DNA from: an uncultured virus (IMG/VR IMGVR_UViG_3300009128_000001) | Taxonomy: Duplodnaviria; Heunggongvirae; Uroviricota; Caudoviricetes | Strand: one strand, 5' to 3' | DNA length: 64,000 bases | IMG/VR virus record: IMGVR_UViG_3300009128_000001 | Shown here: in pieces, positions 3,572 to 60,590 of the stretch | Numbering within the stretch: the stretch's first letter is position 1 | Layout of the letters: the number at the start of each line of letters is the position of its first letter | The notes under the pieces: model-generated | Databases searched by the model: none | What the model was told of the DNA's origin: nothing | Seen by the model: only the letters and a program-made list of their open reading frames with translations | Made by a program: the position numbers and the translations under genes

Positions 3572-4558
3572 CTAGAATAATGAATGATAATCTGGAATAG
3601 TATCCCTGGACTCACACCGGCAATCACTTACAAGATGATGACAATAAGGACAATCATCGCCACAGAAACAATCATCTATACGCTCGTCACAATCAGGACA
3701 AATATCATCACAATAACAATCATCCTCATGTTCGCCGCAATCATCACAATAGCGTTCCTCTTCCTCTTCCTCTTCCTCTTCCTCTTCATCATCACGGAAC
3801 GGATCATATATACGATCCTTAAACTCGCCCTCTGACTCGCCAAGAACTTTATACTCACATACACGCATCTTAGCTCGGTTATAATCAACAGGAACAGCTA
3901 CAACATCGCGAGGATTAACCTCTACAAACACTGTAATCTCTCCGGCATATTCATCATGCGCATAACTATAAGTGGCCACATGTAAACCGTGAGAACAGGT
4001 GCGCTCAGGATCTTCATCTACTTGATTGCGAGGCATGCTGACAACTGTTCCAACCGAATTATCAAACTTACCAGTACGAACATCAGTAAAGTTTTTATTG
4101 ATACTCTTGTACGCAATGAAGTTTCCGTCTGTAGTAATGGTTAGATTTGTATTCTGAATGAAATCGAACAATTGCTGAACAGAACGATATGACGGATTAA
4201 GATTTAGCTTTTGCGCAAACTTAACCAATGAGTCAAAGTTTAGACCCTCGTCCATATAGTTTATGATAGTATCGTTCAAAGCAGATGATACGCTAAATTC
4301 CGAACCATCATCGCCTTTTACAAATACTTTTCCATGCTCTACGCGCATTTTAGAATCAGAAGCTTTGACTACAGCCTTTTCCCGATCCATTAGGTCAACA
4401 GCATCATGCCATCGCTCCTCTTGAACAGCCAGAAGAACCTCATCATATAGGGCGCTTTCTCTCTTTACTGTTTTAGATTCACCATTACTAACAACAGTAA
4501 TTGCTTGTTTAGTAACCAGGCTCGGGGGCGCATCAGAACCAAAATTCATAGTTTTCAT
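3572..4558 (-). CDS. rIIB: rIIB-like protein with acidic and Cys-rich tail
   Basis: NPS..QLFDF, ITTDGNFIAYK, MPRNQVDEDPERTCSHGLHV, VNPRDVVAVPVDYNRAKMRVCEYKV; follows rIIA. Confidence 0.9.
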   Translation of the reverse strand: MKTMNFGSDAPPSLVTKQAITVVSNGESKTVKRESALYDEVLLAVQEERWHDAVDLMDREKAVVKASDSKMRVEHGKVFVKGDDGSEFSVSSALNDTIINYMDEGLNFDSLVKFAQKLNLNPSYRSVQQLFDFIQNTNLTITTDGNFIAYKSINKNFTDVRTGKFDNSVGTVVSMPRNQVDEDPERTCSHGLHVATYSYAHDEYAGEITVFVEVNPRDVVAVPVDYNRAKMRVCEYKVLGESEGEFKDRIYDPFRDDEEEEEEEEEEERYCDDCGEHEDDCYCDDICPDCDERIDDCFCGDDCPYCHHLVSDCRCESRDTIPDYHSLF

Positions 4559-4568
4559 TTTTAATCTC

Positions 4569-6815
4569 CTATGCCGAAAGTTGCATATCCCAATCTTGTG
4601 TTAATGGAAATAAATTTGCGGCAGCATCATCTCCTTTTGAATCATCGCTTGCTGCCAAATTGTTGTCAATTAAATTAATATAATCAATAACAGCTTCTTG
4701 TCCGCCATCATCGATATAATAAGTGTCAATCTGTTTTAATAAAGGATATCTCTTAATAACATCTAGGTACATCGTTCTAAGCTCGGAATCATCTTTGCGA
4801 TTAGATTCTGTGCTATATCGATCAAAAGACCAGCGAGGCGGCCAGGCGATCTTTTCCATTTTTTGCAAGATACCAATATAGGTTTTATGTTTTTGTAATA
4901 GGTTAAAAACTTCTTCTGACCTTTTGTAATATTTAGCTAGAAGACCACCATTTGCGTTTAATTGGATTACTTTTCTACAAAGATCCGTATTAAATTTCAT
5001 ATGGGTTTTAAAGTACCAATTAGATTCCTTGCAAGCCTCGTTAAGATCTTTGACAGAAATAGTAGACTCTGTTTCCGCGATCTTATCTAATACAGCTTGC
5101 TTTAGAGTTTTCCATTTAGTTTTATCAAGCTTCTCCAGTTTTGCGTTAGAAAATCCATAAATAGTCTGGCCAATAAATTCAGAGAATGTTTCTATATGCC
5201 GACCGCTCACACGCATATTTTCGGTAACAAATAACTTACGTTTAAAATCCGCAAAGATATAAACACCACCGTCTTTATTTAGAACACTAATGGGCTCTCC
5301 ATGAATACGATTGCCAACAGGTGATAATTCATATCCGCGTAGAGATCCTTTACGCCTAGTTCCAACCGCAGCGCCCCTAACTTTGCGAGGCATTTGAACG
5401 TCTGCTAAGCTTCTAGCACCAATAAGATCTAAAAGGTCGTGCTTATATTCTACCTTGGGGGTTCTTCCGTAATCAACCTCGTGTCTATAATCTGCACAAG
5501 AAGGCTTTTGAGGGGTGGAAATGATTTGGATTTTTTCCAGATCCGGATTGGTGCTGAAAATATGTTCAACCAACCGCTTGTCTACACGCTCTTGAGTTCT
5601 ATCATTTTTAAAAATAAATAAATCGTCGCCAGCATCCATAAACTTAATCTTACTGCTCCGACGCGTCCTAGAAACAATGCGGCTATATTCTTTAGCATAA
5701 ACAGTTAGTCTAGCCCAATTACCAATATCCAAGATGGTTAGCTCTCGATATAGTTTGTGACCATTCCACTTCACGCTTTCATCAAGTGCGCCCTCTAATG
5801 ACCATCCCCTGATATTTTCTATAGTCTCATTATATAGTTTACAGGCCTCTACAAACGTAGTAGCACTTTTAATCTTTGCACTAATTGTGTCCGTAAGTTC
5901 ACATAGCGCCCGCCGAAATATATTAATAATTAGCTTTTGGGTTCCTGGCGAATATTGAATATTATCCCTGCTAGCAGCCAAATCTAATTCGCCGACACCG
6001 AAAGATAGAACAAAGCCGTTTCCACTTAAAGCGGAGCGCTCTTCTTTGGTTAGGCCGTCCAAAGACGAAGCATCCAGGTCATATCTAATGCCATCTACTA
6101 TAACCACCGGATCATTATTACAAGACCAGCCATAACGATCAGTACGGGCCTTTCGTAAAACCCAATCAGCTCCAGACGCAATATCTTCCTGCTCTTTAAA
6201 TTCAATCTCATCGCCAAAGAATTCTGGTCTTACATCCCAATATTCTACAGCAATCTTTGTGGCATTTTTAAATTTATATTCATCGCCACTAGTAACAGGT
6301 ATAATAATGGTAGTTCCATTAGGCTCATCTGTTGAGACAGATTCGGCCAAAGAAATCTTACCAACTTTAGTCTCATCAATAAATGCAATATACGTGCGCC
6401 TAGTTCCATCTACTACTGTAACAACGGTAAAGTTATCGCTATATGCAAAGGGAGTTTTACACCCCAAACCAAACCCACCAGTTTGAATATTGTCTTGGCG
6501 CTTTGTAGATGCAGCATACTTAGTAAATACATCTGCCATTCTAGTCGGAGAAATACCGGGGCCATAATCTTTGATCTTATAATTCAGATCAAATGCAGTG
6601 GGAAGATAAATCTCAATAGGACGATCAGGCGTTCCTACTTCCCTATGAGCATCGCGAGCATTAGATGCAATTTCGCGACAGATTGCTTTAATAGGATCTT
6701 TGTAAATCTTGGTGCGCAGGATATCAAAGATCATTCCAAGATCGCCCACGCCAAAAGCCTGCTCCATCAGCATGCCATTAGTTTCTGCGGAAATATTGCT
6801 TTCAGGTAGTAGCAT
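4569..6815 (-). CDS. rIIA: rIIA-like protein (N-terminal GHKL ATPase)
   Basis: REIASNARDAH, DYGPGIS, STK..GGFGLGCKTPFAYSD, NGT; adjacent to rIIB. Confidence 0.9.
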   Translation of the reverse strand: MLLPESNISAETNGMLMEQAFGVGDLGMIFDILRTKIYKDPIKAICREIASNARDAHREVGTPDRPIEIYLPTAFDLNYKIKDYGPGISPTRMADVFTKYAASTKRQDNIQTGGFGLGCKTPFAYSDNFTVVTVVDGTRRTYIAFIDETKVGKISLAESVSTDEPNGTTIIIPVTSGDEYKFKNATKIAVEYWDVRPEFFGDEIEFKEQEDIASGADWVLRKARTDRYGWSCNNDPVVIVDGIRYDLDASSLDGLTKEERSALSGNGFVLSFGVGELDLAASRDNIQYSPGTQKLIINIFRRALCELTDTISAKIKSATTFVEACKLYNETIENIRGWSLEGALDESVKWNGHKLYRELTILDIGNWARLTVYAKEYSRIVSRTRRSSKIKFMDAGDDLFIFKNDRTQERVDKRLVEHIFSTNPDLEKIQIISTPQKPSCADYRHEVDYGRTPKVEYKHDLLDLIGARSLADVQMPRKVRGAAVGTRRKGSLRGYELSPVGNRIHGEPISVLNKDGGVYIFADFKRKLFVTENMRVSGRHIETFSEFIGQTIYGFSNAKLEKLDKTKWKTLKQAVLDKIAETESTISVKDLNEACKESNWYFKTHMKFNTDLCRKVIQLNANGGLLAKYYKRSEEVFNLLQKHKTYIGILQKMEKIAWPPRWSFDRYSTESNRKDDSELRTMYLDVIKRYPLLKQIDTYYIDDGGQEAVIDYINLIDNNLAASDDSKGDDAAANLFPLTQDWDMQLSA

Positions 6816-6977
6816 TATTATTCTCCGTATCAATAATAGAGATTAGGTCGAAAAAATATTGTGTAATGTAATATGCTCGCGCTTCGTCACTGTCGCCAAA
6901 AAATAAAGTTGTTTGTTTTAAATGATAAAGAACAGTATTGTGTACTTCTTCAAAATCTAATTCGTTCAGTTTAATCG

Positions 6978-28185: not shown

Positions 28186-28279
28186 TGAGCTGGGTAGGAT
28201 TCGAACCTACATCAGGCCAAGATTTTACCGCGGGATTTATATTTGGTCTTATCCAAAGCACCCTTTAAATTACCAGCTC
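28186..28279 (-). ncRNA. tRNA-like RNA without canonical D/anticodon arms
   Basis: Acceptor GAGCTGG/CCAGCTC+A, T-arm GTAGG-TTCGAAT-CCTAC; no 7-nt anticodon loop found. Confidence 0.6.
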
Positions 28280-28445: not shown

Positions 28446-29609
28446 CTAGTCAGGCTTTTCGATTTTTTGTTTTTTGTACCCCAATAGTCTCATTAATTTA
28501 TCCACATGCATTTTTATTAAATACTCCCTAATATCTCTCGCCTTTCCAGCCCGAACACTAAATAACGCTCCAGAACATTTTGTTTGTACTGCCTGTAATG
28601 CAAACTCTTTCTGCTCTGAAATGTTCTTTAATCTGTCATAATCCTTTCTTAATTCTGACAGCAATAAATCGAACCTCTCTTTTGCATCATTTACAAACGG
28701 TTCGAATTCAGGAAATGCCGTCAATACCTCGCTCGTTTCACCTCTACGAGCTATTTCTACAAATGCTCTTTGCGTTAGGCCGTCCTTAGCGTGATGTAAA
28801 GCGACATAACCAGGATTCTTTACCTTTATGCGATTAAAGTACTTATCAACCACGACATATCCCTCTTGTTCCAAGGGCGGCATGTCATTTAACGTATAAA
28901 GCAGGTCATCAAGATTGTCAAATGAAAACTCCTTAACAGCAGGAATTCCACAGTGAAACATCTGCTCCACTTCTTTTGCCGGTATTTCCTCTCCACTAAT
29001 TAATTCCCTTGCCCCTAGAATGGCCAACTTAGGCTGACGATGCGGGACCACAATCCTATTCAAAGGCCCCATTAACTCAAACATAAAACAAATACGCTTG
29101 GCCATAGGCACAAATGCATCACAATCGCTGTAAACATTATCAACAACCTGCCAAAAATACTCAGCAAATGTTTGGGGAAGTTTTAATTGTGTTCCATCAC
29201 AATCCCAAGTAAGATCTGAATCCAAGTCACATACCGGGCCGCTAGCACCAGGGCTACCACTCGTACCTACATGCCAATTATTATTATAAAAATAAAGCAT
29301 GATTAACGAGCCATCAACCTTCTCTTGTACTACCGCAGAATCCCAATCAATTTCTGCCGCATGTCCCTCCGCAGAGTTAAAGAACTTATTGAAAGGATGG
29401 CATATAACATCCCAATTATTATCGGAATCTAGAATTAAACCGCGGCATTCTTGTACAATTTGCTCGCCCATTGGAGAGTCTAGCATGTCATATTTGAAGC
29501 CAATTAAGTTTGGATAATCTGCATGCGGCTTAGAGTGAATATGAAACTCGTTTTCCAGATCCTCTGGTGTCTTTCCAGAGCGCAAATATGCTTGTACTTC
29601 TAACATCAT
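28446..29609 (-). CDS. T4 Rnl1-like ATP-dependent RNA ligase
   Basis: ECRGLI, PFNKFFN, EKVDGSL (motif I), FEL, EGYVV, RIKVKNPGY. Confidence 0.9.
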   Translation of the reverse strand: MMLEVQAYLRSGKTPEDLENEFHIHSKPHADYPNLIGFKYDMLDSPMGEQIVQECRGLILDSDNNWDVICHPFNKFFNSAEGHAAEIDWDSAVVQEKVDGSLIMLYFYNNNWHVGTSGSPGASGPVCDLDSDLTWDCDGTQLKLPQTFAEYFWQVVDNVYSDCDAFVPMAKRICFMFELMGPLNRIVVPHRQPKLAILGARELISGEEIPAKEVEQMFHCGIPAVKEFSFDNLDDLLYTLNDMPPLEQEGYVVVDKYFNRIKVKNPGYVALHHAKDGLTQRAFVEIARRGETSEVLTAFPEFEPFVNDAKERFDLLLSELRKDYDRLKNISEQKEFALQAVQTKCSGALFSVRAGKARDIREYLIKMHVDKLMRLLGYKKQKIEKPD

Positions 29610-33864: not shown

Positions 33865-34268
33865 AATTAAATGGCGGGCCTAACTTAATTGTTTAATGTC
33901 CATTGTTCCCGACCCACCCAAACAACAATAGACTGTGGATTTCGTATTAGCTTGTTTTTCCTTGTTACCAAACCCACACAATCTAAGGAAAACAGAGGTT
34001 GGTTTGCATACGACCTATAGCCAGATCCAACTACACTATAAAACGGAGCGTTTCTTTTAAAAACCACCTAACCCTTATTACAACGCACAATATTTCAAGA
34101 TTAGGTTACTAGATTAGGCCTTAAATCCCCGCATAACCAGAGCTAGCAAATTATGCAGTTACATATCTTTCATCAACAATTCCCTCCACTCTCTATATTC
34201 AATCACTAGGACCGTAAAGCCCTTCAGGAATATAAGTCTGCTTCTACGGAAATCTCCAAAAGAAACGG

Positions 34269-34351
34269 TGCTCACTCCGGGACTCGAACCCGGACTCCTT
34301 TTGGGAAAGAGTTTTTAAGACTCTCGTGGCTACCTGTTACACCAAGTGAGC
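34269..34351 (-). tRNA. tRNA-Leu (UAA)
   Basis: GCTCACT/AGTGAGC; AGAGT-CTTAAAA-ACTCT; long variable arm; CCGGG-TTCGAGT-CCCGG. Confidence 0.9.
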
Positions 34352-41112: not shown

Positions 41113-41457
41113 ATTAATTTCTCCAATAAAAATGCCGGTTTTTAGAATGTTTTTATGACAAACGAGGATTACCGGAAACCCTTAACTTTTCTTACTTATT
41201 ATTGTTCTAATTATGTTTATTTGGATGTGGCCTGATAATTACTATATCTGATGCTTTTACACCAAACGGCCGCCATTGATTCAATCCTCCAACCTAATTA
41301 TCAATAAAAAACATTCAACTTCAACTCACTCAACAATCAATACTCTTACTTAATGTTAGTCTTATTTAGGCGGATCTTTATTTCGCATATTCAATTCCAG
41401 ATATAAGGATACACCCAAGCCAAGGCCCAGGTGTATCGGTTATCCTTTCTGGCTTAA

Positions 41458-43530
41458 TTATGCCAAGAACTCAGCACTAATTTTGTCAATGTCGAATGGT
41501 GTAATGCCCTCATCAATAGAGAATACAGTATCAGCCTCTTCTTTGCTTTCAACTAATTCCCCACGAGCATGAGCATGAGCCTCAAACAGTTGATATAGAT
41601 TGGGCTTATTACCCAGGTTTACAATTGATTTTAGCGTATCTTGAATGCTGGCGCGATTGTTTTCTACATTATTCCCATAACGGTTCCAACGACCAGGCGC
41701 AACAGTTTCCCAAGGAGCATTACGCTTAGTAACCAAATCACACCAAATTCCCTTGCGCTCTTTCAAATCAAACACAACAGGAATTGCATTGCGCGAAGCG
41801 GCCCGCAAATCAATCTTCTGTTCAACTGTCTTAGGATCAAAAGTAGCATTTTTTGCCGGCTTATCACGAGTCATCCAGCCAGCATAACAAATCTCATGGT
41901 CAGCAAAATTAGGACCACAATAAACCAATACATTCATTACAATGTATCGAGCGTGTTCCATTGCTTGGTCCATGTTAATGTCAATAAACTCAGCAGCACC
42001 ATTGGGAGCCTGAACAATATCACCACTATGAAATGCTTGGTACTTAGAGCTGCGCAGATTAGTGTACGCAATTCTTTCTACCATATTGAAATTTTCGTCA
42101 TGCAAAGATGCCGACAAGTCAATATCTTGCCCCTTCCAATAGATGAATAGGCGCAACACGTCCTTTTCAGTGATAGGTAGTCTGGTACCCCTAGCAACCT
42201 GAATAAGCCCCTCAGAAGCGCTTCTCTGCTGCATAGGGATAGGACAATTAGCAAGTGCTGGATCAATCCAAACCTTACCCAACTCGTCCAACTCACTAAA
42301 CCTATCAATCAAGGTCTTTTGCAAACCAGAACGAACGCGAGTAATAGTTGGCTTGGTCAATAGCGGCAACTTATCCTTCAGAATAATTGCAGAAGTCATT
42401 GATCCCTTGGGGAAAACAACTCGTTCACGACTTTCTTCATCGCGATTATTGAAGTGACCCATCAATTGGCAAAGAACTCGGGTACTTACCTTATCAGCAA
42501 CCTTATTAAATGAGGTTACAACAGTCCTAGGATCGCCAATCCTTAGCAAATGATCCAATCGACGAGCAAAATCACCCGGCCTATGCGATAGTAAAATGGC
42601 AGCATCCTTAGACTTACCATTAGAAATGCAGCCCTCTACCATAGAATTAAAAGTTTCCAACTTATCATTGCGGGCCTTAAAAGCAAGCTCACATGTCTTT
42701 GGACACGCTTTGACAAAATCACCAATATGGAGATTATGAAATGCCTTTACCCACTTATTCTTATGACGCGCGATGTCATCTTCATTAATTACGCCTTCCA
42801 AAGCATAAGCTAGCTTTCGCCTCTTGCTCTTAGGCAAAGACTTGAATTTAGTATTCGCGGCCAAAGAAATATCACCACCAGACAAATGCGCCATAACACG
42901 CAATACATCAGTAGCATTAGAGACACAGCCTTGAATTGATTTGCCACTCTCAATTAAATGAGAAGCAACCAAACATAGGTTCTCTTTAAAAGGAATGGCT
43001 TTGGGATATTCCAACTTCATATTGGAATTCAAAAACCACTCAACCATCTGGCGATCCTCTTTAGATAAAGAGGTATTGGCAGACAGAAGCGTAGTAAATA
43101 CCTTCCCTACGTCAGACTCAGTACAGGCATCGATTTGAATAAACTTTACATCTTCAAAACCGATTTCTTTTTGAACTTCCTCATACTCAGGAAGCCAAGT
43201 TCCCTCTGACCAATAATGAACAATAGCGTTTAGGAATAGTTCCAAATCACTTGCTTCCATTACCTGTTGTGGGAAATTAGGATACATTGGGCGATACTTC
43301 ACGTCATCACCCTTCATCTTTTTAAGAACAGGGATAACCTCTTCATAAATGCTGACGATTTGCTCTCTATTGTAGGTAGAGATGATCTCATGTAGGTTCT
43401 TGGTCATTACAAAACCAAGGCGCATCATTTCGGCATTAAAAGAGGCAACAATATTTTCATTCCCACTTACTGGACAGCCGCGATGGGCAACAATAGAATG
43501 AAGCTTTTTAACTGTGATTAGAGTTTTCAT
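41458..43530 (-). CDS. Large alpha-helical protein with C-terminal TerD-like domain (candidate Rot/TROVE-TerD)
   Basis: PMYPNFPQQV, NATDVLR, RPGDFARRLDHLLR; TerD-type DIDLSA, HSGDIVQAPNGAAEFIDI. Confidence 0.8.
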   Translation of the reverse strand: MKTLITVKKLHSIVAHRGCPVSGNENIVASFNAEMMRLGFVMTKNLHEIISTYNREQIVSIYEEVIPVLKKMKGDDVKYRPMYPNFPQQVMEASDLELFLNAIVHYWSEGTWLPEYEEVQKEIGFEDVKFIQIDACTESDVGKVFTTLLSANTSLSKEDRQMVEWFLNSNMKLEYPKAIPFKENLCLVASHLIESGKSIQGCVSNATDVLRVMAHLSGGDISLAANTKFKSLPKSKRRKLAYALEGVINEDDIARHKNKWVKAFHNLHIGDFVKACPKTCELAFKARNDKLETFNSMVEGCISNGKSKDAAILLSHRPGDFARRLDHLLRIGDPRTVVTSFNKVADKVSTRVLCQLMGHFNNRDEESRERVVFPKGSMTSAIILKDKLPLLTKPTITRVRSGLQKTLIDRFSELDELGKVWIDPALANCPIPMQQRSASEGLIQVARGTRLPITEKDVLRLFIYWKGQDIDLSASLHDENFNMVERIAYTNLRSSKYQAFHSGDIVQAPNGAAEFIDINMDQAMEHARYIVMNVLVYCGPNFADHEICYAGWMTRDKPAKNATFDPKTVEQKIDLRAASRNAIPVVFDLKERKGIWCDLVTKRNAPWETVAPGRWNRYGNNVENNRASIQDTLKSIVNLGNKPNLYQLFEAHAHARGELVESKEEADTVFSIDEGITPFDIDKISAEFLA

Positions 43531-43551
43531 TTTGTATCCTTAATAAAAAAT

Positions 43552-43615
43552 GGGGAAATTATTAGAGCTGATAACTAATAAATGGTGTTTGAGAAGGAAG
43601 CTCTAATATGGCCCC
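43552..43615 (-). ncRNA. UCCUUCU structured RNA unit A
   Basis: GGGG-CCAT-ATTAGAGCT-TCCTTCT-loop-AGCTCTAAT-AATTT-CCCC. Confidence 0.75.
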
Positions 43616-43624
43616 GCTAAAAAC

Positions 43625-43720
43625 TGGGAAATTACTGAAACTATTTTTTGCTGGTGAATCCAAGATATCCCGAAGGATACCCAGGGTTCGATAAATAGAA
43701 GGAAGCCTCAGTATAGCCCA
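43625..43720 (-). ncRNA. UCCUUCU structured RNA unit B
   Basis: TGGG-CTAT-ACTGAGGCT-TCCTTCT-loop-AGTTTCAGT-AATTT-CCCA. Confidence 0.75.
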
Positions 43721-43753
43721 AAAAGTCTATGTTATAAATCTATCTAAAAAACA

Positions 43754-43819
43754 AGGGGAAAGCACTGGCACTGATTAATTTTATCCAGAAATTGAGAAGG
43801 AAGTACCAATATAGCCCCT
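43754..43819 (-). ncRNA. UCCUUCU structured RNA unit C
   Basis: AGGGG-CTAT-ATTGGTACT-TCCTTCT-loop-AGTGCCAGT-GCTTT-CCCCT. Confidence 0.75.
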
Positions 43820-43825
43820 CAAACC

Positions 43826-43916
43826 TTGTAGTAATTGTTGGCGCTGTTTAAATTGCATATTGAAGCAATTTCCGCTTACGCGGAAATTATAGAAGGAAGC
43901 CCCAACATAGCTACAA
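43826..43916 (-). ncRNA. UCCUUCU structured RNA unit D
   Basis: TTGTAG-CTAT-GTTGGGGCT-TCCTTCT-loop-AGCGCCAAC-AATTA-CTACAA. Confidence 0.75.
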
Positions 43917-43934
43917 TGTAATCTTCATGTACGT

Positions 43935-43963
43935 ACTATAACCCAAAATTAGTAGGTTGTCAA
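43935..43963 (-). promoter_or_regulatory. sigma70-type promoter for RNA array and TerD-domain gene
   Basis: TTGACA-17bp-TATAGT with AT-rich upstream element. Confidence 0.8.
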
Positions 43964-45046
43964 TTATTTTACGCTTTTTTATTTAATCTCTGTACCTTGG
44001 CGACACTTTGGGCGGCTCGACAAAATACTCAGAATATTTTTCACCTACCTCATTTTCAGCTTCGCGCAACTTTTGGTCAGCCCGATAAATCTTAACAGCC
44101 TTCCACAACCTGTCCTGTTCATTTTTAGACAAGCGGACAAAAGTACACTCTCCATTAGCTTGTTTTATCGCCTCGTAAATCTCCAGCTTTCCATCTTTAG
44201 TCTTGCTGGTTGAAAGAGACAGATACTCTTTAATAACCTCTGCGCTGCTAATAAAGGAGTGCCATTTCCTTACCTTACAAGACAAACAGTTCATGTGCTT
44301 TTCAGGACATGTTTCATTGATTACTTCGTATTTCATTATTTTCTCTCTTCCGGATGGCCACAATAAAGACAGACATCATTGCACGGATCTTCTGAGCTAT
44401 TATAAACACACATTCCAGTGGGAGATTTTTCGCAATCCCATGACCACCCAAGATCAATATCGTCGGAAGATATATTTAGATCTAATGATAATAGACCACA
44501 AATCGTTTGCTGTGCCTCAAACATCTCGTGCTCAAGCTCACTAATATGACGATGAAATCCCTCTATTGCACTAACAAGCTGCCTAATTTCTTCTTTATCT
44601 TCTTTATCCATCGTATACCCATTTTTTCGGCCGGGGGACACTTAGTTGCGGTTCACCGTCGGGTGGGTTTTGGCGCACTATGTATTCTTTTATCCTACAC
44701 CACTATAACTATTTAATATTACTAACTATTTGGCGTCTCAACTAATTCTACATCCAAAGAATATTCATCAACAATTTCTTCCCCAGACGGACTTAACATT
44801 CCATCACCAATACAACGGAACATCTCTTTCTCCAGAAAATAATCATGATTGTCAGATAAGGTTGCCTCATCATAATGAACAACCATAGTAATCTTATATA
44901 CTTGAGCCATCATTTATCTCCAACACTTCTATAACCAACCCTCTTCCTACTAACCGAACGAATCTGTTGAGCTTTCCTTTTATTCCGCAGTGACTCCAAC
45001 ATCATACTAATCATAAGCAGGAATACAAATGCACCAATTACATACA

Positions 45047-56500: not shown

Positions 56501-56580
56501 TGGCGCTCTAATATAGGAGTCGAACCTACTTCTCCAGACAATTCATTAGCCTGGCGTTTTACCACAAAACTAATTAGAGC
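56501..56580 (-). ncRNA. Aberrant tRNA: 8-bp acceptor stem, enlarged anticodon loop, encoded CCA
   Basis: GCTCTAAT/ATTAGAGC-GCCA; D-arm GTTT/AAAC; CCAGGC-TAATGAATT-GTCTGG; GTAGG-TTCGACT-CCTAT. Confidence 0.7.
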
Positions 56581-57934: not shown

Positions 57935-58321
57935 TTAACGCAAAGATTCCCAACGGTTTTTCATTCTATCAATTGCTTCGGGCGGAACATCATGAACATT
58001 ACCAAAATCATTCTGACATTCAATTACACTCACACTGTAACCATACTTTTCCGCCAATTCAAAGTAAACCTTAGCTTCCCACTTCTGACTAAAAGTATTA
58101 TGTACAGCAATCTTTTGAATAGATTCCACCATACATTTCTCTACATTAGTTTGACATTGGCCGTGTGCTTGTTTTAGTTTAGACGGATCGAAGTTATATC
58201 CGCCATCTTTTTCGAAGTAATCATCAGCAGCAAAGAGAGCGCCAGTCCAACCTACCAGATCCTTTGCTACAGTTGTTTTTCCACTTCCAGGCAATCCACG
58301 AACGATGTATAGAATATTCAT
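57935..58321 (-). CDS. P-loop kinase (AAA_33, polynucleotide-kinase-like)
   Basis: RGLPGSGKTT, ADDYF, AHGQCQ, VHNTF, NVHDVP..IDRM..RWE; start corrected. Confidence 0.85.
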   Translation of the reverse strand: MNILYIVRGLPGSGKTTVAKDLVGWTGALFAADDYFEKDGGYNFDPSKLKQAHGQCQTNVEKCMVESIQKIAVHNTFSQKWEAKVYFELAEKYGYSVSVIECQNDFGNVHDVPPEAIDRMKNRWESLR

Positions 58322-59068
58322 GTTTTTATTCCTATAGATAGAGATTAACCAGGTATTCGGCAGCCTCACGAGAAGAATTAAAAGTAATTGTTTCTCCGGG
58401 TAATTCAAGTCTCCAAGTGTTTCCTCGCCGATTAGAAAACATTGTAAAGTCATCGTGGTGAATAGTTTCGTCTTCTATTCGGTATTGGGTTAGCTCTATT
58501 GCCGTGTTAATTGCGAATGGTGAGTGCATTGTTTTATCCCTATCCGTGTGAAAAAGTTACCCTCGTTTGCTTTGCCCTCATTCTCCACTTACCATCTCCC
58601 CCGCCTGTCCGCTTACATACTGGCCCTTTATATCTTACTATTGGGTCGGATGTGGGGGCAGGTAATGAATTAAGCGCTTCTTTTTTATTCCAACATTCTC
58701 CAGTTTCTTCACACATAACTTTAACTGGCGAACTTTGGACGTTATAACCTTCTTCTTTTCTTAGGAAGTTTAGGAGTAGATGTTTAGCTATACGCCAGCG
58801 GTTTTTTTCTTGATTGAATTGCGCGCGGTTAACTTCTTTTATTACCTCGAATGTATCCCCGCTTGCAAACCACATCTTCCACAATACTTTTATGAACTTA
58901 GGCTTTTTTTCTCTCTTTTTTCTCTCCCCTTTTTTACCTGAACTTCTCGCCGCTAATGCTTGAGCTTTTTCGAATACCTCTTTTCCTACCTGCCAGTCTT
59001 CTGCTTTTATTGGTGGATTATCTGTACCATCACATATCCAAAAGGACATTGGCAAACCTCTTTTAGCT

Positions 59069-59756: not shown

Positions 59757-60590
59757 CTAGTCGTCTGTTTTATCTTGAATATAATCGGCCGCCTTTTGAG
59801 CTTGTGCCGCAGCCAATACCAACCAATCTTTATTGTTTTGCAGTTTCTTTAGCCAGCTTTCAAGATAACCAGCATGATTCTTTTCGGTTTCACGGTTATT
59901 GATCCCAGTAACACCACACAACATTGCCGCTGTAAACTCTGCAATTAGTTCTTCTTTTGAGTAATTGTGTGAACCAAAGTGTACGGTATTAGTTACTCCT
60001 TCACGCTCTAGTCTATCCGCGTGGCCCGTACTATGGCCTAATTCGTGGAATAGAGTAGCATAATAAGCCTCGGCACTCTCGAATATGTCCTCTTTTGGCA
60101 TATTAACTACATCTTTGGCCGGAACATAATAGGGATTAGGATCTTTATGCTCAATATCGGGACAGTCTTTATAACCATCCACCAATTGTTCGCAGGCTTC
60201 TATTGGTTCAAACTCTCTTTTTTCTTGCTCGGGTACTTCTAAACCCTCGCATTGATCGGTATTAAAAACCGTATAATACCGCAGAATGAAAAAGGACTTG
60301 TCTTTGCCGTTCTCTTCTTTATCAATCTTTTTCCAGAAGATAATAGGTCGGCCCTTTTCTCCCTTTTTAACCGATCCGCCCTTTGCCTTTGCTTGCTTGT
60401 ATGTAACCCACCAGCGAGAAGAAAAACCCGCCAACCCTAGGGTCATAATATTAAACCCTCTATATTCTTTTTTACTTACTAGGTTGGCTGCACTCCCACT
60501 AGCCCAAGTCTTACGCCAAGGATTCTCTCCCTTTTCCAACAGGTCAAAGATCGGTTTGGTGATAACGTCGTATACTTTAGATCTGCTCAT
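59757..60590 (-). CDS. ardC: ArdC-family antirestriction ssDNA-binding/zincin-like protein
   Basis: PWRKTW, YRGFN, WVTYKQA..GGSVKKGEKG, YTVFN, TLFHELGHSTGH..RL.R, YSKEELIAE. Confidence 0.9.
   Translation of the reverse strand: MSRSKVYDVITKPIFDLLEKGENPWRKTWASGSAANLVSKKEYRGFNIMTLGLAGFSSRWWVTYKQAKAKGGSVKKGEKGRPIIFWKKIDKEENGKDKSFFILRYYTVFNTDQCEGLEVPEQEKREFEPIEACEQLVDGYKDCPDIEHKDPNPYYVPAKDVVNMPKEDIFESAEAYYATLFHELGHSTGHADRLEREGVTNTVHFGSHNYSKEELIAEFTAAMLCGVTGINNRETEKNHAGYLESWLKKLQNNKDWLVLAAAQAQKAADYIQDKTDD

What the first reader, a model, noticed from the sequence alone, without database searches (positions are those of the whole stretch)
41458..43963. Promoter, four covarying structured RNAs and a helical+TerD protein: candidate Ro60/Y-RNA-like RNP system
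Seen: a TTGACA-17-TATAGT promoter (43935..43963) is followed on the minus strand by four units (43826..43916, 43754..43819, 43625..43720, 43552..43615) and then, about 20 nt later, the 690-aa gene. Each unit reads stem1, CYAU, a 9-bp stem2 ending CU, invariant UCCUUCU, a variable 22-54 nt insert, AG-stem2', a 5-nt AAUUU-like bulge, stem1'. Stem2 differs in every unit but keeps pairing (ATTAGAGCT/AGCTCTAAT, ACTGAGGCT/AGTTTCAGT, ATTGGTACT/AGTGCCAGT, GTTGGGGCT/AGCGCCAAC, the last with one G-G mismatch). The G-U pairs work only on the gene's strand, which points to selection at RNA level. Knowledge: Ro60/TROVE ring proteins bind the bulged terminal stem of Y RNAs, which carry pyrimidine-rich loops, and as I recall Rot domains fused to TerD occur in RNA-repair neighbourhoods. 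Inference: these are processed small RNAs with a fixed protein-binding stem and a swappable cargo loop, partnering the downstream protein. The alternative is a four-fold autoregulatory or riboswitch leader.
Basis: partly seen in the sequence, partly recalled or inferred. Interest (0 to 1): 0.9.

Follow-up and report, generated by a model that had tools for sequence, protein, structure and literature searches.

The report
Ro60-like phage protein with partner RNAs
Four small structured RNAs sit in a row in front of a phage gene for a ring-plus-TerD protein, and the same RNA-protein pair recurs in hundreds of phages and bacteria, which points to an undescribed RNA-protein particle that resembles the Ro60/Y RNA quality-control particle.

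Summary
Window 43551..43915 (-) holds four tandem units of one RNA motif. Each has a 5-bp stem, CUAU, a 9-bp covarying stem ending CU, invariant UCCUUCU(A), a variable insert, AG plus the return strand, a 5-nt bulge and CC plus the return strand. They lie behind a TTGACA-17-TATAGT promoter and end 20 nt before a 690-aa gene. A covariance model built from relatives finds exactly these four sites in the 64 kb. It also finds 298 more next to homologous genes, in 133 of 144 fetched loci and always on the gene's strand. In 151 Planctomycetota genomes the RNA occurs in 8, and all 8 carry the protein. RING-fused relatives (NCBIfam NF041916) have the RNA too. Fifteen of 194 unique units carry a circularly permuted tRNA-like module, as bacterial YrlA Y RNAs do. 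The protein has a TerD-fold C-terminal domain. Its helical N-terminal domain finds Ro60 structures as the two best of 48,161 chains (Z 8.9 and 8.3), but no sequence homology to TROVE is detectable. No Rfam family matches, and I found no paper describing the pair. My best reading is an undescribed, widespread Ro60/Y-RNA-like particle. Binding and RNA processing are untested.

The parts
43935..43963 (-). Sigma-70-like promoter TTGACA-17-TATAGT, upstream of the RNA array
   Evidence: It matches 11 of 12 consensus positions and is the best site in 41200..44400. The total number of such sites there is not above chance.
43827..43915 (-). RNA unit 1 (89 nt). Stem1 is UGUAG/CUACA and stem2 is GUUGGGGCU/AGCGCCAAC with one G-G mismatch. 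The insert holds a 9-bp hairpin.
   Evidence: R1 scores 44.8 bits, E 5.4e-11; this unit was not in the model's training set. MFE is -29.5 kcal/mol, z -4.55.
43754..43819 (-). RNA unit 2 (66 nt). Stem2 is AUUGGUACU/AGUGCCAGU and the bulge is GCUUU.
   Evidence: R1 scores 66.8 bits, E 1.1e-17; this unit was in the training set. Fold z is -2.59.
43624..43721 (-). RNA unit 3 (98 nt). Stem2 is ACUGAGGCU/AGUUUCAGU, with two G-U pairs. The insert holds a UUCG-capped hairpin.
   Evidence: R1 scores 46.7 bits, E 1.4e-11; this unit was not in the training set. MFE is -31 kcal/mol, z -3.74.
43551..43616 (-). RNA unit 4 (66 nt). The linker is CCAU, stem2 is AUUAGAGCU/AGCUCUAAU and the bulge is AAUUU.
   Evidence: R1 scores 56.1 bits, E 2e-14; this unit was in the training set. 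Fold z is -4.86.
43537..43541 (-). AAGGA, a Shine-Dalgarno-like site between unit 4 and the start codon
   Evidence: Read directly from the sequence.
41458..43530 (-). Gene for a 690-aa protein with a helical N-terminal domain and a TerD-fold domain. It belongs to PHROG 33734 and is a RING-less relative of NCBIfam NF041916.
   Evidence: ORF. PHROG 33734 at 5.7e-79. NF041916 at E 1.6e-113, 380.6 bits, below the 600-bit cut-off. 3124 proteins with E<=0.001 among 8000 scored candidates. AF2 model with pLDDT 86.9, pTM 0.84.
42211..43530 (-). Residues 1-440: a small alpha/beta N-terminal part, then helical repeats with a Ro60/TROVE-like arrangement
   Evidence: Model pLDDT 87.5. VIA-align rank 1 is 9l5y_B, a Thermus phage Ro60 (Z 8.9, rmsd 4.2, 226 aligned). 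Rank 2 is 2nvo_A, Deinococcus Rsr (Z 8.3, rmsd 6.5, 261 aligned), out of 48,161 chains. In BFVD the best non-family hit is a TROVE protein, E 0.025. Foldseek against PDB found nothing and hhalign gave probability 0.2%.
41632..42168 (-). Residues 455-633: a TerD-fold beta-sandwich
   Evidence: Foldseek finds 2kxt at E 7.2e-6 and 3ibz at 1.1e-5. VIA-align gives 2qz7_B Z 13.3 (rmsd 2.4, 148 aligned) and 2kxt Z 12.7. Pfam TerD is not matched by sequence.
41408..41437 (-). Terminator-like hairpin after the stop codon, with a 13-bp stem
   Evidence: The T-run after it is weak.

Best explanation
The four units are genes for small structured non-coding RNAs that work together with the protein encoded just downstream. 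They probably form an RNA-protein particle built on the same plan as Ro60 with its Y RNAs.

Proposed mechanism:
1. The array and the gene are transcribed from the promoter at 43963..43935.
2. The units, which in related loci are mostly 2-20 nt apart, are cut out of this transcript.
3. Each unit keeps an invariant scaffold: the GG/CC-closed stem1, the CUA / RMUYU internal loop, the CU/AG top of stem2 and the UCCUUCUA strand. The protein's helical ring-like domain recognises this scaffold.
4. The variable insert is the working module. It is a simple hairpin in the window's four units and a circularly permuted tRNA mimic in some relatives. As in Ro60/Y RNA particles, it would tether or gate other RNA enzymes or RNA targets.
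5. The TerD-fold domain sits where Ro60 has its vWA domain. TerD is known as a Ca2+-binding fold.

The setting points to a role in tRNA/RNA surveillance, repair or control of host ribonucleases during infection. That setting is a T4-like phage early region, tRNA gene clusters, and CCA-adding and RNA-repair genes in a minority of loci.

Shown: the RNA structure, its covariation, and its near-exclusive linkage to the gene family. Supported but not proven: the Ro60-like fold. Inferred: binding, processing and the cellular role.
For: RNA-gene linkage:
- R1 finds 118 matches in 63 of 72 bacterial loci and 180 in 70 of 72 viral loci. All 298 are on the gene's strand. With filters off, L132 gains one as well.
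- Distant homologues (24-31% identity) in the cultured phages XacN1, Weasels2, RcXuper and LpeD also have units beside the gene.
- 21 of 22 loci of RING-fused NF041916 relatives have a unit upstream. The 22nd has no upstream flank.

Specificity:
- In 5 whole genomes, all 10 matches lie at the gene's locus.
- In 151 Planctomycetota genomes, 8 have the RNA, and those same 8 are among the 9 with a protein match. The ninth is a TerD-only ORF.
- There is no unit next to canonical Ro60 genes.

Structure and covariation:
-.

Y-RNA-like plan:
- The 5' and 3' ends form the conserved stem, and the inner module varies.
- 15 of 194 unique units have T-arm and D-arm signatures, with T before D in all 15. 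The fold of L073:2181-2320 shows the inner cloverleaf.
- This is the order reported for YrlA (bioRxiv 10.1101/312249, passages).

Protein:
- TerD fold.
- Ro60 chains are ranks 1 and 2 of 48,161 for the N-terminal domain, and ranks 3, 7 and 23 for the whole model, with 295-315 aligned residues.
- The best non-family BFVD hit is a TROVE protein.

Positions that argue against a pure leader:
- Units lie downstream of the gene in many viral loci, and in G112 and G130.
- One pair lies on another contig (G102).

Context:
- 33 of 60 phage loci scanned hold tRNA or tmRNA genes, all on the same strand as the gene.
- CCA-adding-type nucleotidyltransferases occur in 5 of 33 viral loci, and HAD_SAK_2, RNA ligase and HD genes in a few.
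- RNA ligase, RlaP, Thg1, kinase, PTH2 or nucleotidyltransferase genes occur in 6 of 30 bacterial loci.

Precedent:
- A phage Ro60 binds two phage-encoded Y-like RNAs and host PNPase (PMC12135203, abstract).
Against: Homology and fold:
- No sequence homology to TROVE was detectable. Pfam gave nothing at E<=1, a profile search of PDB sequences gave nothing, and hhalign against 69 Ro60 sequences gave probability 0.1-0.2%.
- Foldseek against PDB gives nothing better than E 0.05 for the N-terminal domain.
- The VIA-align Z scores of 8-9 are below the roughly 13 that the tool's own note gives as a caution level for helical repeats.
- The ESM Atlas lists only the protein's own superfamily.

Differences from Ro60/Y RNA:
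- The reported Ro60-binding motifs, GNCGAAN0-1G and GGUCCGA (PMC4201824, passages), are absent from the consensus.
- A TerD fold replaces vWA.
- None of the window's four units has a tRNA-like module.

Room for a cis role:
- In most bacterial loci and in the window, the last unit ends 16-60 nt before the start codon, which also fits a cis-acting leader.

Context and data limits:
- RNA-repair neighbours are a minority: 24 of 30 bacterial loci have unrelated neighbours.
- L030 and L041 have full upstream flanks but no unit.
- There are no expression data.
- Alignment A2 was picked for perfect pairing, so its 99.8% paired figure is by construction.
- The genome-wide RNA searches scored only 34-150 first-look candidates per genome, so extra copies may have been missed.
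Confidence: 0.6

Rival explanations
1. The units are a cis-acting leader. They would be operator sites on the mRNA through which the protein, or a small ligand, controls translation or termination of its own gene. No separate small RNA would be made.
For: - Units are on the gene's strand in 298 of 298 matches.
- In the window, in most bacterial loci and in RING-fused relatives, the last unit ends 16-60 nt before the start codon, just ahead of the ribosome-binding site.
- Tandem aptamers are known in riboswitches (general knowledge).
Against: - Many units lie after the stop codon (for example L077, L078-L080, L086, L095, L100, L106, L144).
- Some are separated from the gene by an ORF (L015: units at 2027-2084 and 2829-2885 with an ORF at 2123-2764).
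- One pair lies on another contig (G102).
- Up to 5 R1 matches occur in one locus (L075, L076, L119, L133). Inserts vary from 10 to 100 nt and include whole tRNA-like modules. A ligand-binding aptamer would keep its core constant.
- A secondary autoregulatory role for the unit nearest the gene is not excluded.
Confidence: 0.15
2. The units are tRNA-related substrates or decoys rather than partners. They could be precursors processed with the neighbouring tRNAs, or mimics that draw off host enzymes acting on tRNA, such as anticodon nucleases or modification enzymes. The protein would act as their chaperone or processing factor.
For: - They are embedded in tRNA gene clusters in 33 of 60 phage loci.
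- Permuted tRNA-like modules occur.
- L011:2743-2881 scores as a tRNA (49.2 bits) with a 78-nt insertion that holds the motif's 5' half.
- CCA-adding enzyme genes lie nearby.
- The invariant CUUCUA(A) has the form of a C32-U33-UCU-A37-A38 anticodon loop. This is my reading from general tRNA knowledge and is untested.
Against: - Only 15 of 194 unique units carry T-arm and D-arm signatures.
- The conserved strand is not presented in a closed 7-nt loop.
- The near-exclusive linkage is to the protein gene, not to tRNA genes. Bacterial loci mostly lack tRNA genes nearby.
Confidence: 0.12
3. The units are guide-like RNAs. A fixed scaffold would load into the protein, and the variable insert would pair with a nucleic-acid target, in a defence or counter-defence system.
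For: The layout is a fixed scaffold plus a variable part, in tandem arrays with short spacers. The pair occurs in both phages and bacteria.
Against: The variable parts are largely self-paired: stem2 and the hairpins in the inserts. No nuclease domain was found in the protein. I did not search for targets.
Confidence: 0.05

Closest known systems
Bacterial Ro60 (Rsr) with YrlA/YrlB Y RNAs
   Same: - One or more ncRNA genes lie beside the protein gene.
- The RNA's 5' and 3' ends form a long conserved stem and the inner module varies.
- A subset of RNAs carries a circularly permuted tRNA mimic in the order T arm, closed acceptor hairpin, D arm.
- The helical N-terminal domain finds Ro60 structures as its best matches.
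- Some loci have RNA-repair neighbours.
   Different: - There is no detectable sequence homology to TROVE.
- The C-terminal domain has a TerD fold, not vWA.
- The conserved RNA elements are CUAU, UCCUUCUA and RMUYU, not GNCGAAN0-1G.
- Units form tight arrays (up to 5 R1 matches in one locus).
- 4 of 5 genomes with this protein lack a TROVE gene, and the RNA is absent next to canonical Ro60 genes.
Thermus phage phiLo Ro60 with Yrl1/Yrl2 (PMC12135203, abstract read; PDB 9l5y)
   Same: It is a phage-encoded ring protein with phage-encoded partner RNAs. 9l5y_B is the best structural match to the N-terminal domain (Z 8.9, rmsd 4.2, 226 aligned).
   Different: phiLo Ro60 keeps the canonical HEAT ring plus vWA and is recognisable as Ro60. 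The protein here is not recognisable by sequence and carries a TerD fold.
NCBIfam NF041916, MXAN_6230/SCO0854 family RING domain-containing protein
   Same: The two share the helical plus TerD core: residues 284-667 match profile positions 379-764 at E 1.6e-113, and the Atlas gives TM 0.87 over 430 residues. True members carry the same RNA just upstream: L164 at 925.9 bits and L153 at 799.4 bits.
   Different: The window's protein has no RING domain and scores 380.6 bits, below the 600-bit cut-off. I found no described function for NF041916 in the papers searched.
TerD (tellurite-resistance Ter system proteins; PDB 2kxt, 3ibz, 2qz7)
   Same: Residues 455-633 have the TerD beta-sandwich fold. 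NCBI names some homologues 'TerD family protein'.
   Different: TerD proteins are single-domain proteins of about 190 aa, found in ter operons. Here the fold is the tail of a 690-aa protein with an RNA partner, and no ter genes lie nearby.
SPFH/Band-7 modules with a tRNA-like RNA in RNA-repair systems (Burroughs and Aravind 2016; recalled from its abstract, paper not held)
   Same: It is a scaffold protein with a cognate tRNA-like ncRNA in RNA-repair contexts.
   Different: The protein fold is different. I could not read the paper, so I could not compare the RNAs.

Membership tests
Ro60/TROVE protein family | TROVE domain recognisable by sequence (Pfam PF05731) | tested here: not met
   There is no Pfam hit at E<=1. 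A profile search of PDB sequences finds no Ro60. hhalign of A3 or A1 against 69 Ro60 sequences gives probability 0.2% and 0.1%.
Ro60/TROVE protein family | Ring of HEAT-like helical repeats | tested here: inconclusive
   For: VIA-align ranks 1 and 2 of 48,161 chains are Ro60 proteins (Z 8.9, rmsd 4.2, 226 aligned; Z 8.3, rmsd 6.5, 261 aligned), and Xenopus Ro is at rank 42 (Z 6.0). The best non-family hit in BFVD is a TROVE protein (E 0.025, prob 1.00, 382 columns). Against: Foldseek against PDB gives nothing, and the Z scores are under the tool's caution level for helical repeats.
Ro60/TROVE protein family | C-terminal vWA domain with a MIDAS site | tested here: not met
   The C-terminal domain has the TerD fold.
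Y RNA / YrlA | ncRNA gene adjacent to the protein gene, with a long stem formed by the 5' and 3' ends and a second, variable module | tested here: met
Y RNA / YrlA | Ro60-binding sequence in the 5' strand (GNCGAAN0-1G in bacteria, GGUCCGA in vertebrates; PMC4201824 passages) | tested here: not met
   The consensus of 44 units is NNNGG-CUAU-N7CU-UCCUUCUA... and contains no such motif.
Y RNA / YrlA | Circularly permuted tRNA-like module (T arm, closed acceptor hairpin, D arm) | tested here: met
   It is met in a subset only: 15 of 194 unique units, with T before D in all 15. The fold of L073:2181-2320 shows it. None of the window's four units has it.
Y RNA / YrlA | Match to a curated Rfam model | tested here: not met
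   No family matches the array at the gathering score. At E up to 10 there are only chance-level rows. In 12 related loci only tRNA matches appear.
Y RNA / YrlA | Physical binding of the RNA by the protein | not testable with these tools
   No tool here predicts RNA-protein complexes, and no RNA sequencing run holds this sequence.
NCBIfam NF041916 (RING_SCO0854) | Score at or above the curated cut-off (600 bits), full-length match | tested here: not met
   The score is 380.6 bits, and only residues 284-667 match profile positions 379-764.
NCBIfam NF041916 (RING_SCO0854) | N-terminal prokaryotic RING domain | tested here: not met
   The window's protein has no RING family in Pfam. It is present in relative L153 (Prok-RING_4, 2e-15).
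TerD family | TerD domain | tested here: met
   It is met by fold: Foldseek E 7.2e-6 and VIA-align Z 13.3. It is not detected by Pfam sequence search.
PHROG 33734 (phage proteins of unknown function) | Full-length profile match | tested here: met
   E 5.7e-79; residues 25-673 match profile positions 32-740 of 764.
Riboswitch or cis-regulatory leader | Always 5' of the regulated gene, with a constant ligand- or protein-binding core | tested here: not met
   Units also lie 3' of the gene and on another contig, and the inner part varies from 10 to 100 nt.

The most novel reading that the evidence does not exclude
This is a previously undescribed and very widespread class of RNA-protein particle, either a second lineage of Ro-like particles or one diverged beyond sequence recognition. 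A ring-plus-TerD protein, fused to a RING E3-like domain in some bacteria, is served by tandem arrays of small RNAs. These RNAs share one docking scaffold but carry exchangeable working modules, from plain hairpins to permuted tRNA mimics. One protein could then be aimed at several RNA targets or enzymes. Large phages would carry their own copy to manage tRNA/RNA damage or host ribonucleases during infection.
Probability: 0.45. Interest if true: 0.9.

Novelty: new variant of a known kind. Interest (0 to 1): 0.85.

Why it matters
Ro60/Y RNA particles are the only known family of this kind. They link RNA quality control, RNA repair and, in humans, autoimmunity, and bacterial Ro60 is patchily distributed. 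Here a protein family with thousands of members has no assigned function: 3124 hits among 8000 scored candidates. It is annotated only as 'TerD family' or 'RING domain-containing'. This work gives it a specific, testable partner, an RNA family that no Rfam model matches. It occurs across Gammaproteobacteria, Planctomycetota, Melainabacteria, Armatimonadota, Myxococcota, Oxalobacteraceae, a Bacillaceae member and many large phages.

If the RNAs bind the protein, three things follow. The function of NF041916 and PHROG 33734 opens up. [quoted passage not shown] And there is a natural system in which one scaffold presents swappable RNA modules. It would also change how 'TerD' genes in large phages are read: as RNA-linked rather than as part of tellurite or Ter stress systems.

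Tried and rejected
Searches that found nothing:
- Rfam gave no family for the array, either at gathering thresholds or at E up to 10.
- Megablast of the region against 50,697 phage records gave no match.
- The search for related loci with the single protein in viral contigs gave none. The alignment-based scans worked.
- No whole genome is held for the window, so I could not search for further copies in the same phage.
- Sequencing runs: no RNA holder is listed, only 5 DNA runs from marine or seawater metagenomes. I did not lay reads.

Tests for homology to Ro60 that were negative:
- Sequence links were negative in Pfam, in a profile search of PDB sequences and in hhalign.
- The two best hhalign local alignments run in the same order as the structural alignment, but they are not significant.
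- Foldseek against PDB found nothing for the N-terminal domain.
- The ESM Atlas listed only the protein's own superfamily and no TROVE cluster.

Literature:
- The searches turned up no description of this RNA or of a TerD-linked Y-like RNA.
- Burroughs and Aravind 2016 and the 2020 Ro60 review are not held.
- The catalogue of 10,006 viral structured-RNA candidates (PMC10690425) may contain this motif unnamed. Six supplementary files were searched without a hit; files 1, 2 and 4 were not searched.

Other points:
- My first pattern fitted only the variant with a 10-nt stem2, so it undercounted at 23 of 144 loci.
- I rejected a chance or mobile-repeat origin, because of strand-specific covariation and near-exclusive linkage to one gene family.
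- I did not use complex prediction, because the claim concerns RNA, not a protein partner.

Full report
**What is in the window**

On the minus strand, a TTGACA-17-TATAGT promoter (43963..43935) matches 11 of 12 consensus positions and is the best promoter-like site in the region. Four tandem units follow, at 43827..43915, 43754..43819, 43624..43721 and 43551..43616. Twenty nucleotides later, after an AAGGA, comes the start codon of a 690-aa ORF, 41458..43530.

Each unit reads, 5' to 3':
- a 5-nt strand ending GG;
- CUAU (CCAU in unit 4);
- a 9-nt strand ending CU;
- UCCUUCU;
- an insert of 22-54 nt;
- AG plus the return strand;
- a 5-nt bulge (AAUUA, GCUUU, AAUUU, AAUUU);
- the return strand of stem1.

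CTTCCTTCT occurs only at these four places in the 64 kb; shuffles average 0.77 and 1 of 100 reached 4. Each unit folds better than its shuffles, with z -2.6 to -4.9.

**The motif is a large RNA family tied to this gene family**

The protein has many relatives: 3124 with E<=0.001 among 8000 scored candidates. I fetched 72 bacterial and 72 viral loci around homologues. A script then found the same scaffold beside most of them.

I aligned 44 short units (A2). Two were the window's own and 42 came from other loci. From this alignment I built covariance model R1.

| Searched with R1 | Result |
|---|---|
| The 64-kb window, both strands | Exactly the four units (44.8-66.8 bits), including the two not used for training |
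| 72 bacterial loci | 118 matches in 63 loci, all on the gene's strand |
| 72 viral loci | 180 matches in 70 loci, all on the gene's strand |
| L132, filters off | One match at 2919-2977, 20.5 bits |

Of the 11 loci without a match at E<=0.001:
- eight have little or no upstream flank (L003, L031, L049, L052, L055, L062, L072, L093);
- L132 gains its match with filters off;
- L030 and L041 have full flanks and no unit.

Several loci are near-duplicates of one another (for example L015-L021 and L095-L097), so the counts are not all independent.

**Covariation**

A2 was chosen for perfect pairing, so its 99.8% paired figure is by construction. Even so, 11 of 14 pairs change on both sides, in 228 cells. 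That compares with 34-69 cells when the partners are slid by 1-3 columns.

For a test free of that bias, I picked 215 non-identical 5' halves by sequence alone. Of these, 178 find a partner with at least 13 of 14 pairs downstream and 105 pair perfectly. With swapped downstream sequence the means are 11.1 and 1.6. The set contains 163 different stem2 sequences.

The nearly invariant positions, among 188 unique units with a 5-nt bulge, are:
- GG/CC at the inner end of stem1;
- C-U-A-U in the linker;
- CU/AG at the top of stem2;
- A after UCCUUCU (79%);
- U at bulge position 3 (98%).

The UCCUUCU itself and the A of the linker were fixed by my search pattern. Neighbouring units are mostly 2-20 nt apart.

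**Specificity**

- In five whole bacterial genomes of 4.6-9.3 Mb, all 10 R1 matches lie at the locus of the gene.
- In 151 Planctomycetota genomes, R1 matches 8. The protein profile matches 9, namely those same 8 plus one genome with only a 219-aa TerD-like ORF.
- Exceptions to adjacency exist. One genome (G102) has two further units on another contig, between unrelated ORFs. In G083 the RNA and the gene lie on two short contigs.
- These searches scored only 34-150 first-look candidates per genome, so extra copies may have been missed.
- No unit lies next to canonical Ro60 genes.

**Reach of the association**

Distant homologues (24-31% identity) in cultured phages also have units beside the gene, some with UACUUCU in place of UCCUUCU. 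These phages are Xanthomonas phage XacN1, Rhodococcus phage Weasels2, Rhodobacter phage RcXuper and Lactobacillus phage LpeD.

The RING-fused relatives carry the RNA too. L153 scores 799.4 bits against NCBIfam NF041916, and Massilia L164 scores 925.9 bits (cut-off 600). The RNA is present in 21 of 22 such loci, and the 22nd has no upstream flank. In L164 the unit ends 16 nt before the start codon.

**tRNA-like modules**

Among 194 unique units from my script, 15 (in 13 loci) have both a T-arm and a D-arm signature in the insert. The T arm always comes first. The minimum-free-energy fold of L073:2181-2320 shows stem1 and stem2 enclosing an anticodon-like stem, a T arm, a closed acceptor-like hairpin and a D arm.

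The window's four units have plain hairpin inserts.

**The protein**

- Pfam finds nothing. PHROG 33734, of unknown function, matches over the full length.
- NF041916 matches residues 284-667 but below its cut-off, and there is no RING domain.
- The AF2 model is confident, with pLDDT 86.9 and pTM 0.84.
- Residues 455-633 have the TerD fold: Foldseek E 7.2e-6 and VIA-align Z 13.3 and 12.7.

I folded residues 1-440 alone (pLDDT 87.5) and compared the model with 48,161 PDB representatives:

| Rank | Chain | Z | rmsd | Aligned residues |
|---|---|---|---|---|
| 1 | 9l5y_B, Thermus phage Ro60 | 8.9 | 4.2 | 226 |
| 2 | 2nvo_A, Deinococcus Rsr | 8.3 | 6.5 | 261 |
| 42 | 1yvp_A, Xenopus Ro | 6.0 | 9.3 | 273 |

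Most of the other listed rows cover only about 70-105 residues of the stretch 292-414; five (ranks 17, 18, 35, 39 and 42) align 143-273 residues. In BFVD, the first hit outside the family is a phage 'TROVE domain-containing protein' (E 0.025, prob 1.00, 382 columns).

Against this:
- Foldseek against PDB gives nothing.
- Profile-profile comparison with 69 Ro60 sequences gives probability 0.1-0.2%.
- Z values of 8-9 are below the tool's own caution level for helical repeats.

I therefore call the domain Ro60-like in arrangement but not a shown member of TROVE. Four of five genomes with this protein have no TROVE gene.

**Setting**

The window is the early region of a T4-like phage from a marine metagenome. 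It holds rIIA, rIIB, an Rnl1-type RNA ligase, a polynucleotide-kinase-like ATPase, HNH endonucleases and tRNA genes.

- I scanned 60 of the 76 phage loci for tRNA genes, leaving out near-duplicates and L150. Of the 60, 33 have tRNA or tmRNA genes within the roughly 8-kb locus, all on the gene's strand.
- I passed 110 viral ORFs from 33 loci to Pfam. They came from the first 150 of the 215 listed, with almost all opposite-strand ORFs left out. CCA-adding-type nucleotidyltransferases occur in 5 loci. HAD_SAK_2, RNA ligase, HD and metallophosphatase genes occur in a few.
- Of 30 bacterial loci, 6 have RNA ligase, RlaP, Thg1, AAA_33 kinase, PTH2 or nucleotidyltransferase genes nearby, and 24 have unrelated neighbours.

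**Reading**

The data show a structured RNA family that is functionally coupled to this protein superfamily. The most economical mechanism is a particle on the Ro60/Y RNA plan: a constant docking scaffold and an exchangeable module. The RNAs would be cut from a common transcript.

A phage precedent exists. phiLo Ro60 binds two phage-encoded Y-like RNAs and host PNPase (PMC12135203, abstract read).

A cis-regulatory role for the unit next to the start codon remains possible. It cannot explain the downstream units, the orphan units or the units carrying tRNA mimics.

Binding, processing, the role of the TerD domain and the cellular function are inferences.

**Novelty**

No Rfam 15 family matches. 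Six literature searches found no description. Two key papers were not available. A large catalogue of viral RNA candidates could be searched only in part, so an unnamed earlier listing cannot be excluded.

Noticed in passing
window 28186..28279 (-) and 34267..34351 (-): Rfam calls a 94-nt tRNA at 28186..28279 (36.4 bits) that ARAGORN does not report. ARAGORN calls a tRNA-Leu(taa) at 34267..34351 that Rfam does not list at its gathering score. One may carry an insertion or a long arm.
   Followed up: no
window 56501..56580 (-): ARAGORN reports a tRNA-Ile with anticodon AAT, which is an unusual anticodon for a bacterial-type tRNA.
   Followed up: no
window 3572..6833, 28446..29609, 57935..58453, 59757..60590 (all -): The window carries T4-like early-region genes: rIIB and rIIA, an Rnl1-type RNA ligase, a polynucleotide-kinase-like ATPase and an anti-restriction protein. 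Of 94 non-overlapping ORFs of at least 90 aa, 85 are on the minus strand.
   Followed up: partly
L011:2743-2881: A tRNA in normal order (Rfam tRNA, 49.2 bits) has a 78-nt insertion in its anticodon arm. The insertion holds the motif's 5' half (GGCUAU...CUUCCUUCUA) and is followed by a U-run. A standard unit lies just downstream at 2897-2966.
   Followed up: partly
L154:3849-3913 and 3917-3991 (G102, contig 8): Two units lie far from the protein gene, which is on contig 14. They sit between a PEP-CTERM ORF and ORFs without a Pfam family.
   Followed up: partly
L131:363-719, L139:5487-5846, L151:1817-2239: tmRNA genes lie in three phage loci, close to the gene and its RNA units.
   Followed up: no
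L079:6214-6290, L083:2193-2271 and 5849-5923, L126:2276-2351: Several of these phage loci hold tRNAs with anticodon CTA, which would read the amber stop codon. ARAGORN labels them tRNA-Pyl. This may indicate stop-codon suppression or recoding.
   Followed up: no
all units, e.g. window 43592..43600 (-): The invariant CUUCUA(A) has the form of a 7-nt anticodon loop, C32-U33-UCU-A37-A38, as in tRNA-Arg(UCU). This is my reading from general tRNA knowledge. Distant phage homologues keep CUUCUA while changing the bases before it. I cannot tell whether this is mimicry or coincidence.
   Followed up: no
L002:2881-2963, L010:2776-2837, L038:2908-2973, L014:2882-2965: A sub-type of the unit has 10 nt instead of 9 between CUAU and UCCUUCU. 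It scores lower with R1 and was the only form that my first pattern could find.
   Followed up: partly
window 43743..43753, 43617..43623, 43541..43550 (-): In the window, units 2, 3 and 4 are each followed by a run of 5-6 U. This is not conserved in other loci. It may be AT-rich spacer or weak termination specific to this phage.
   Followed up: no
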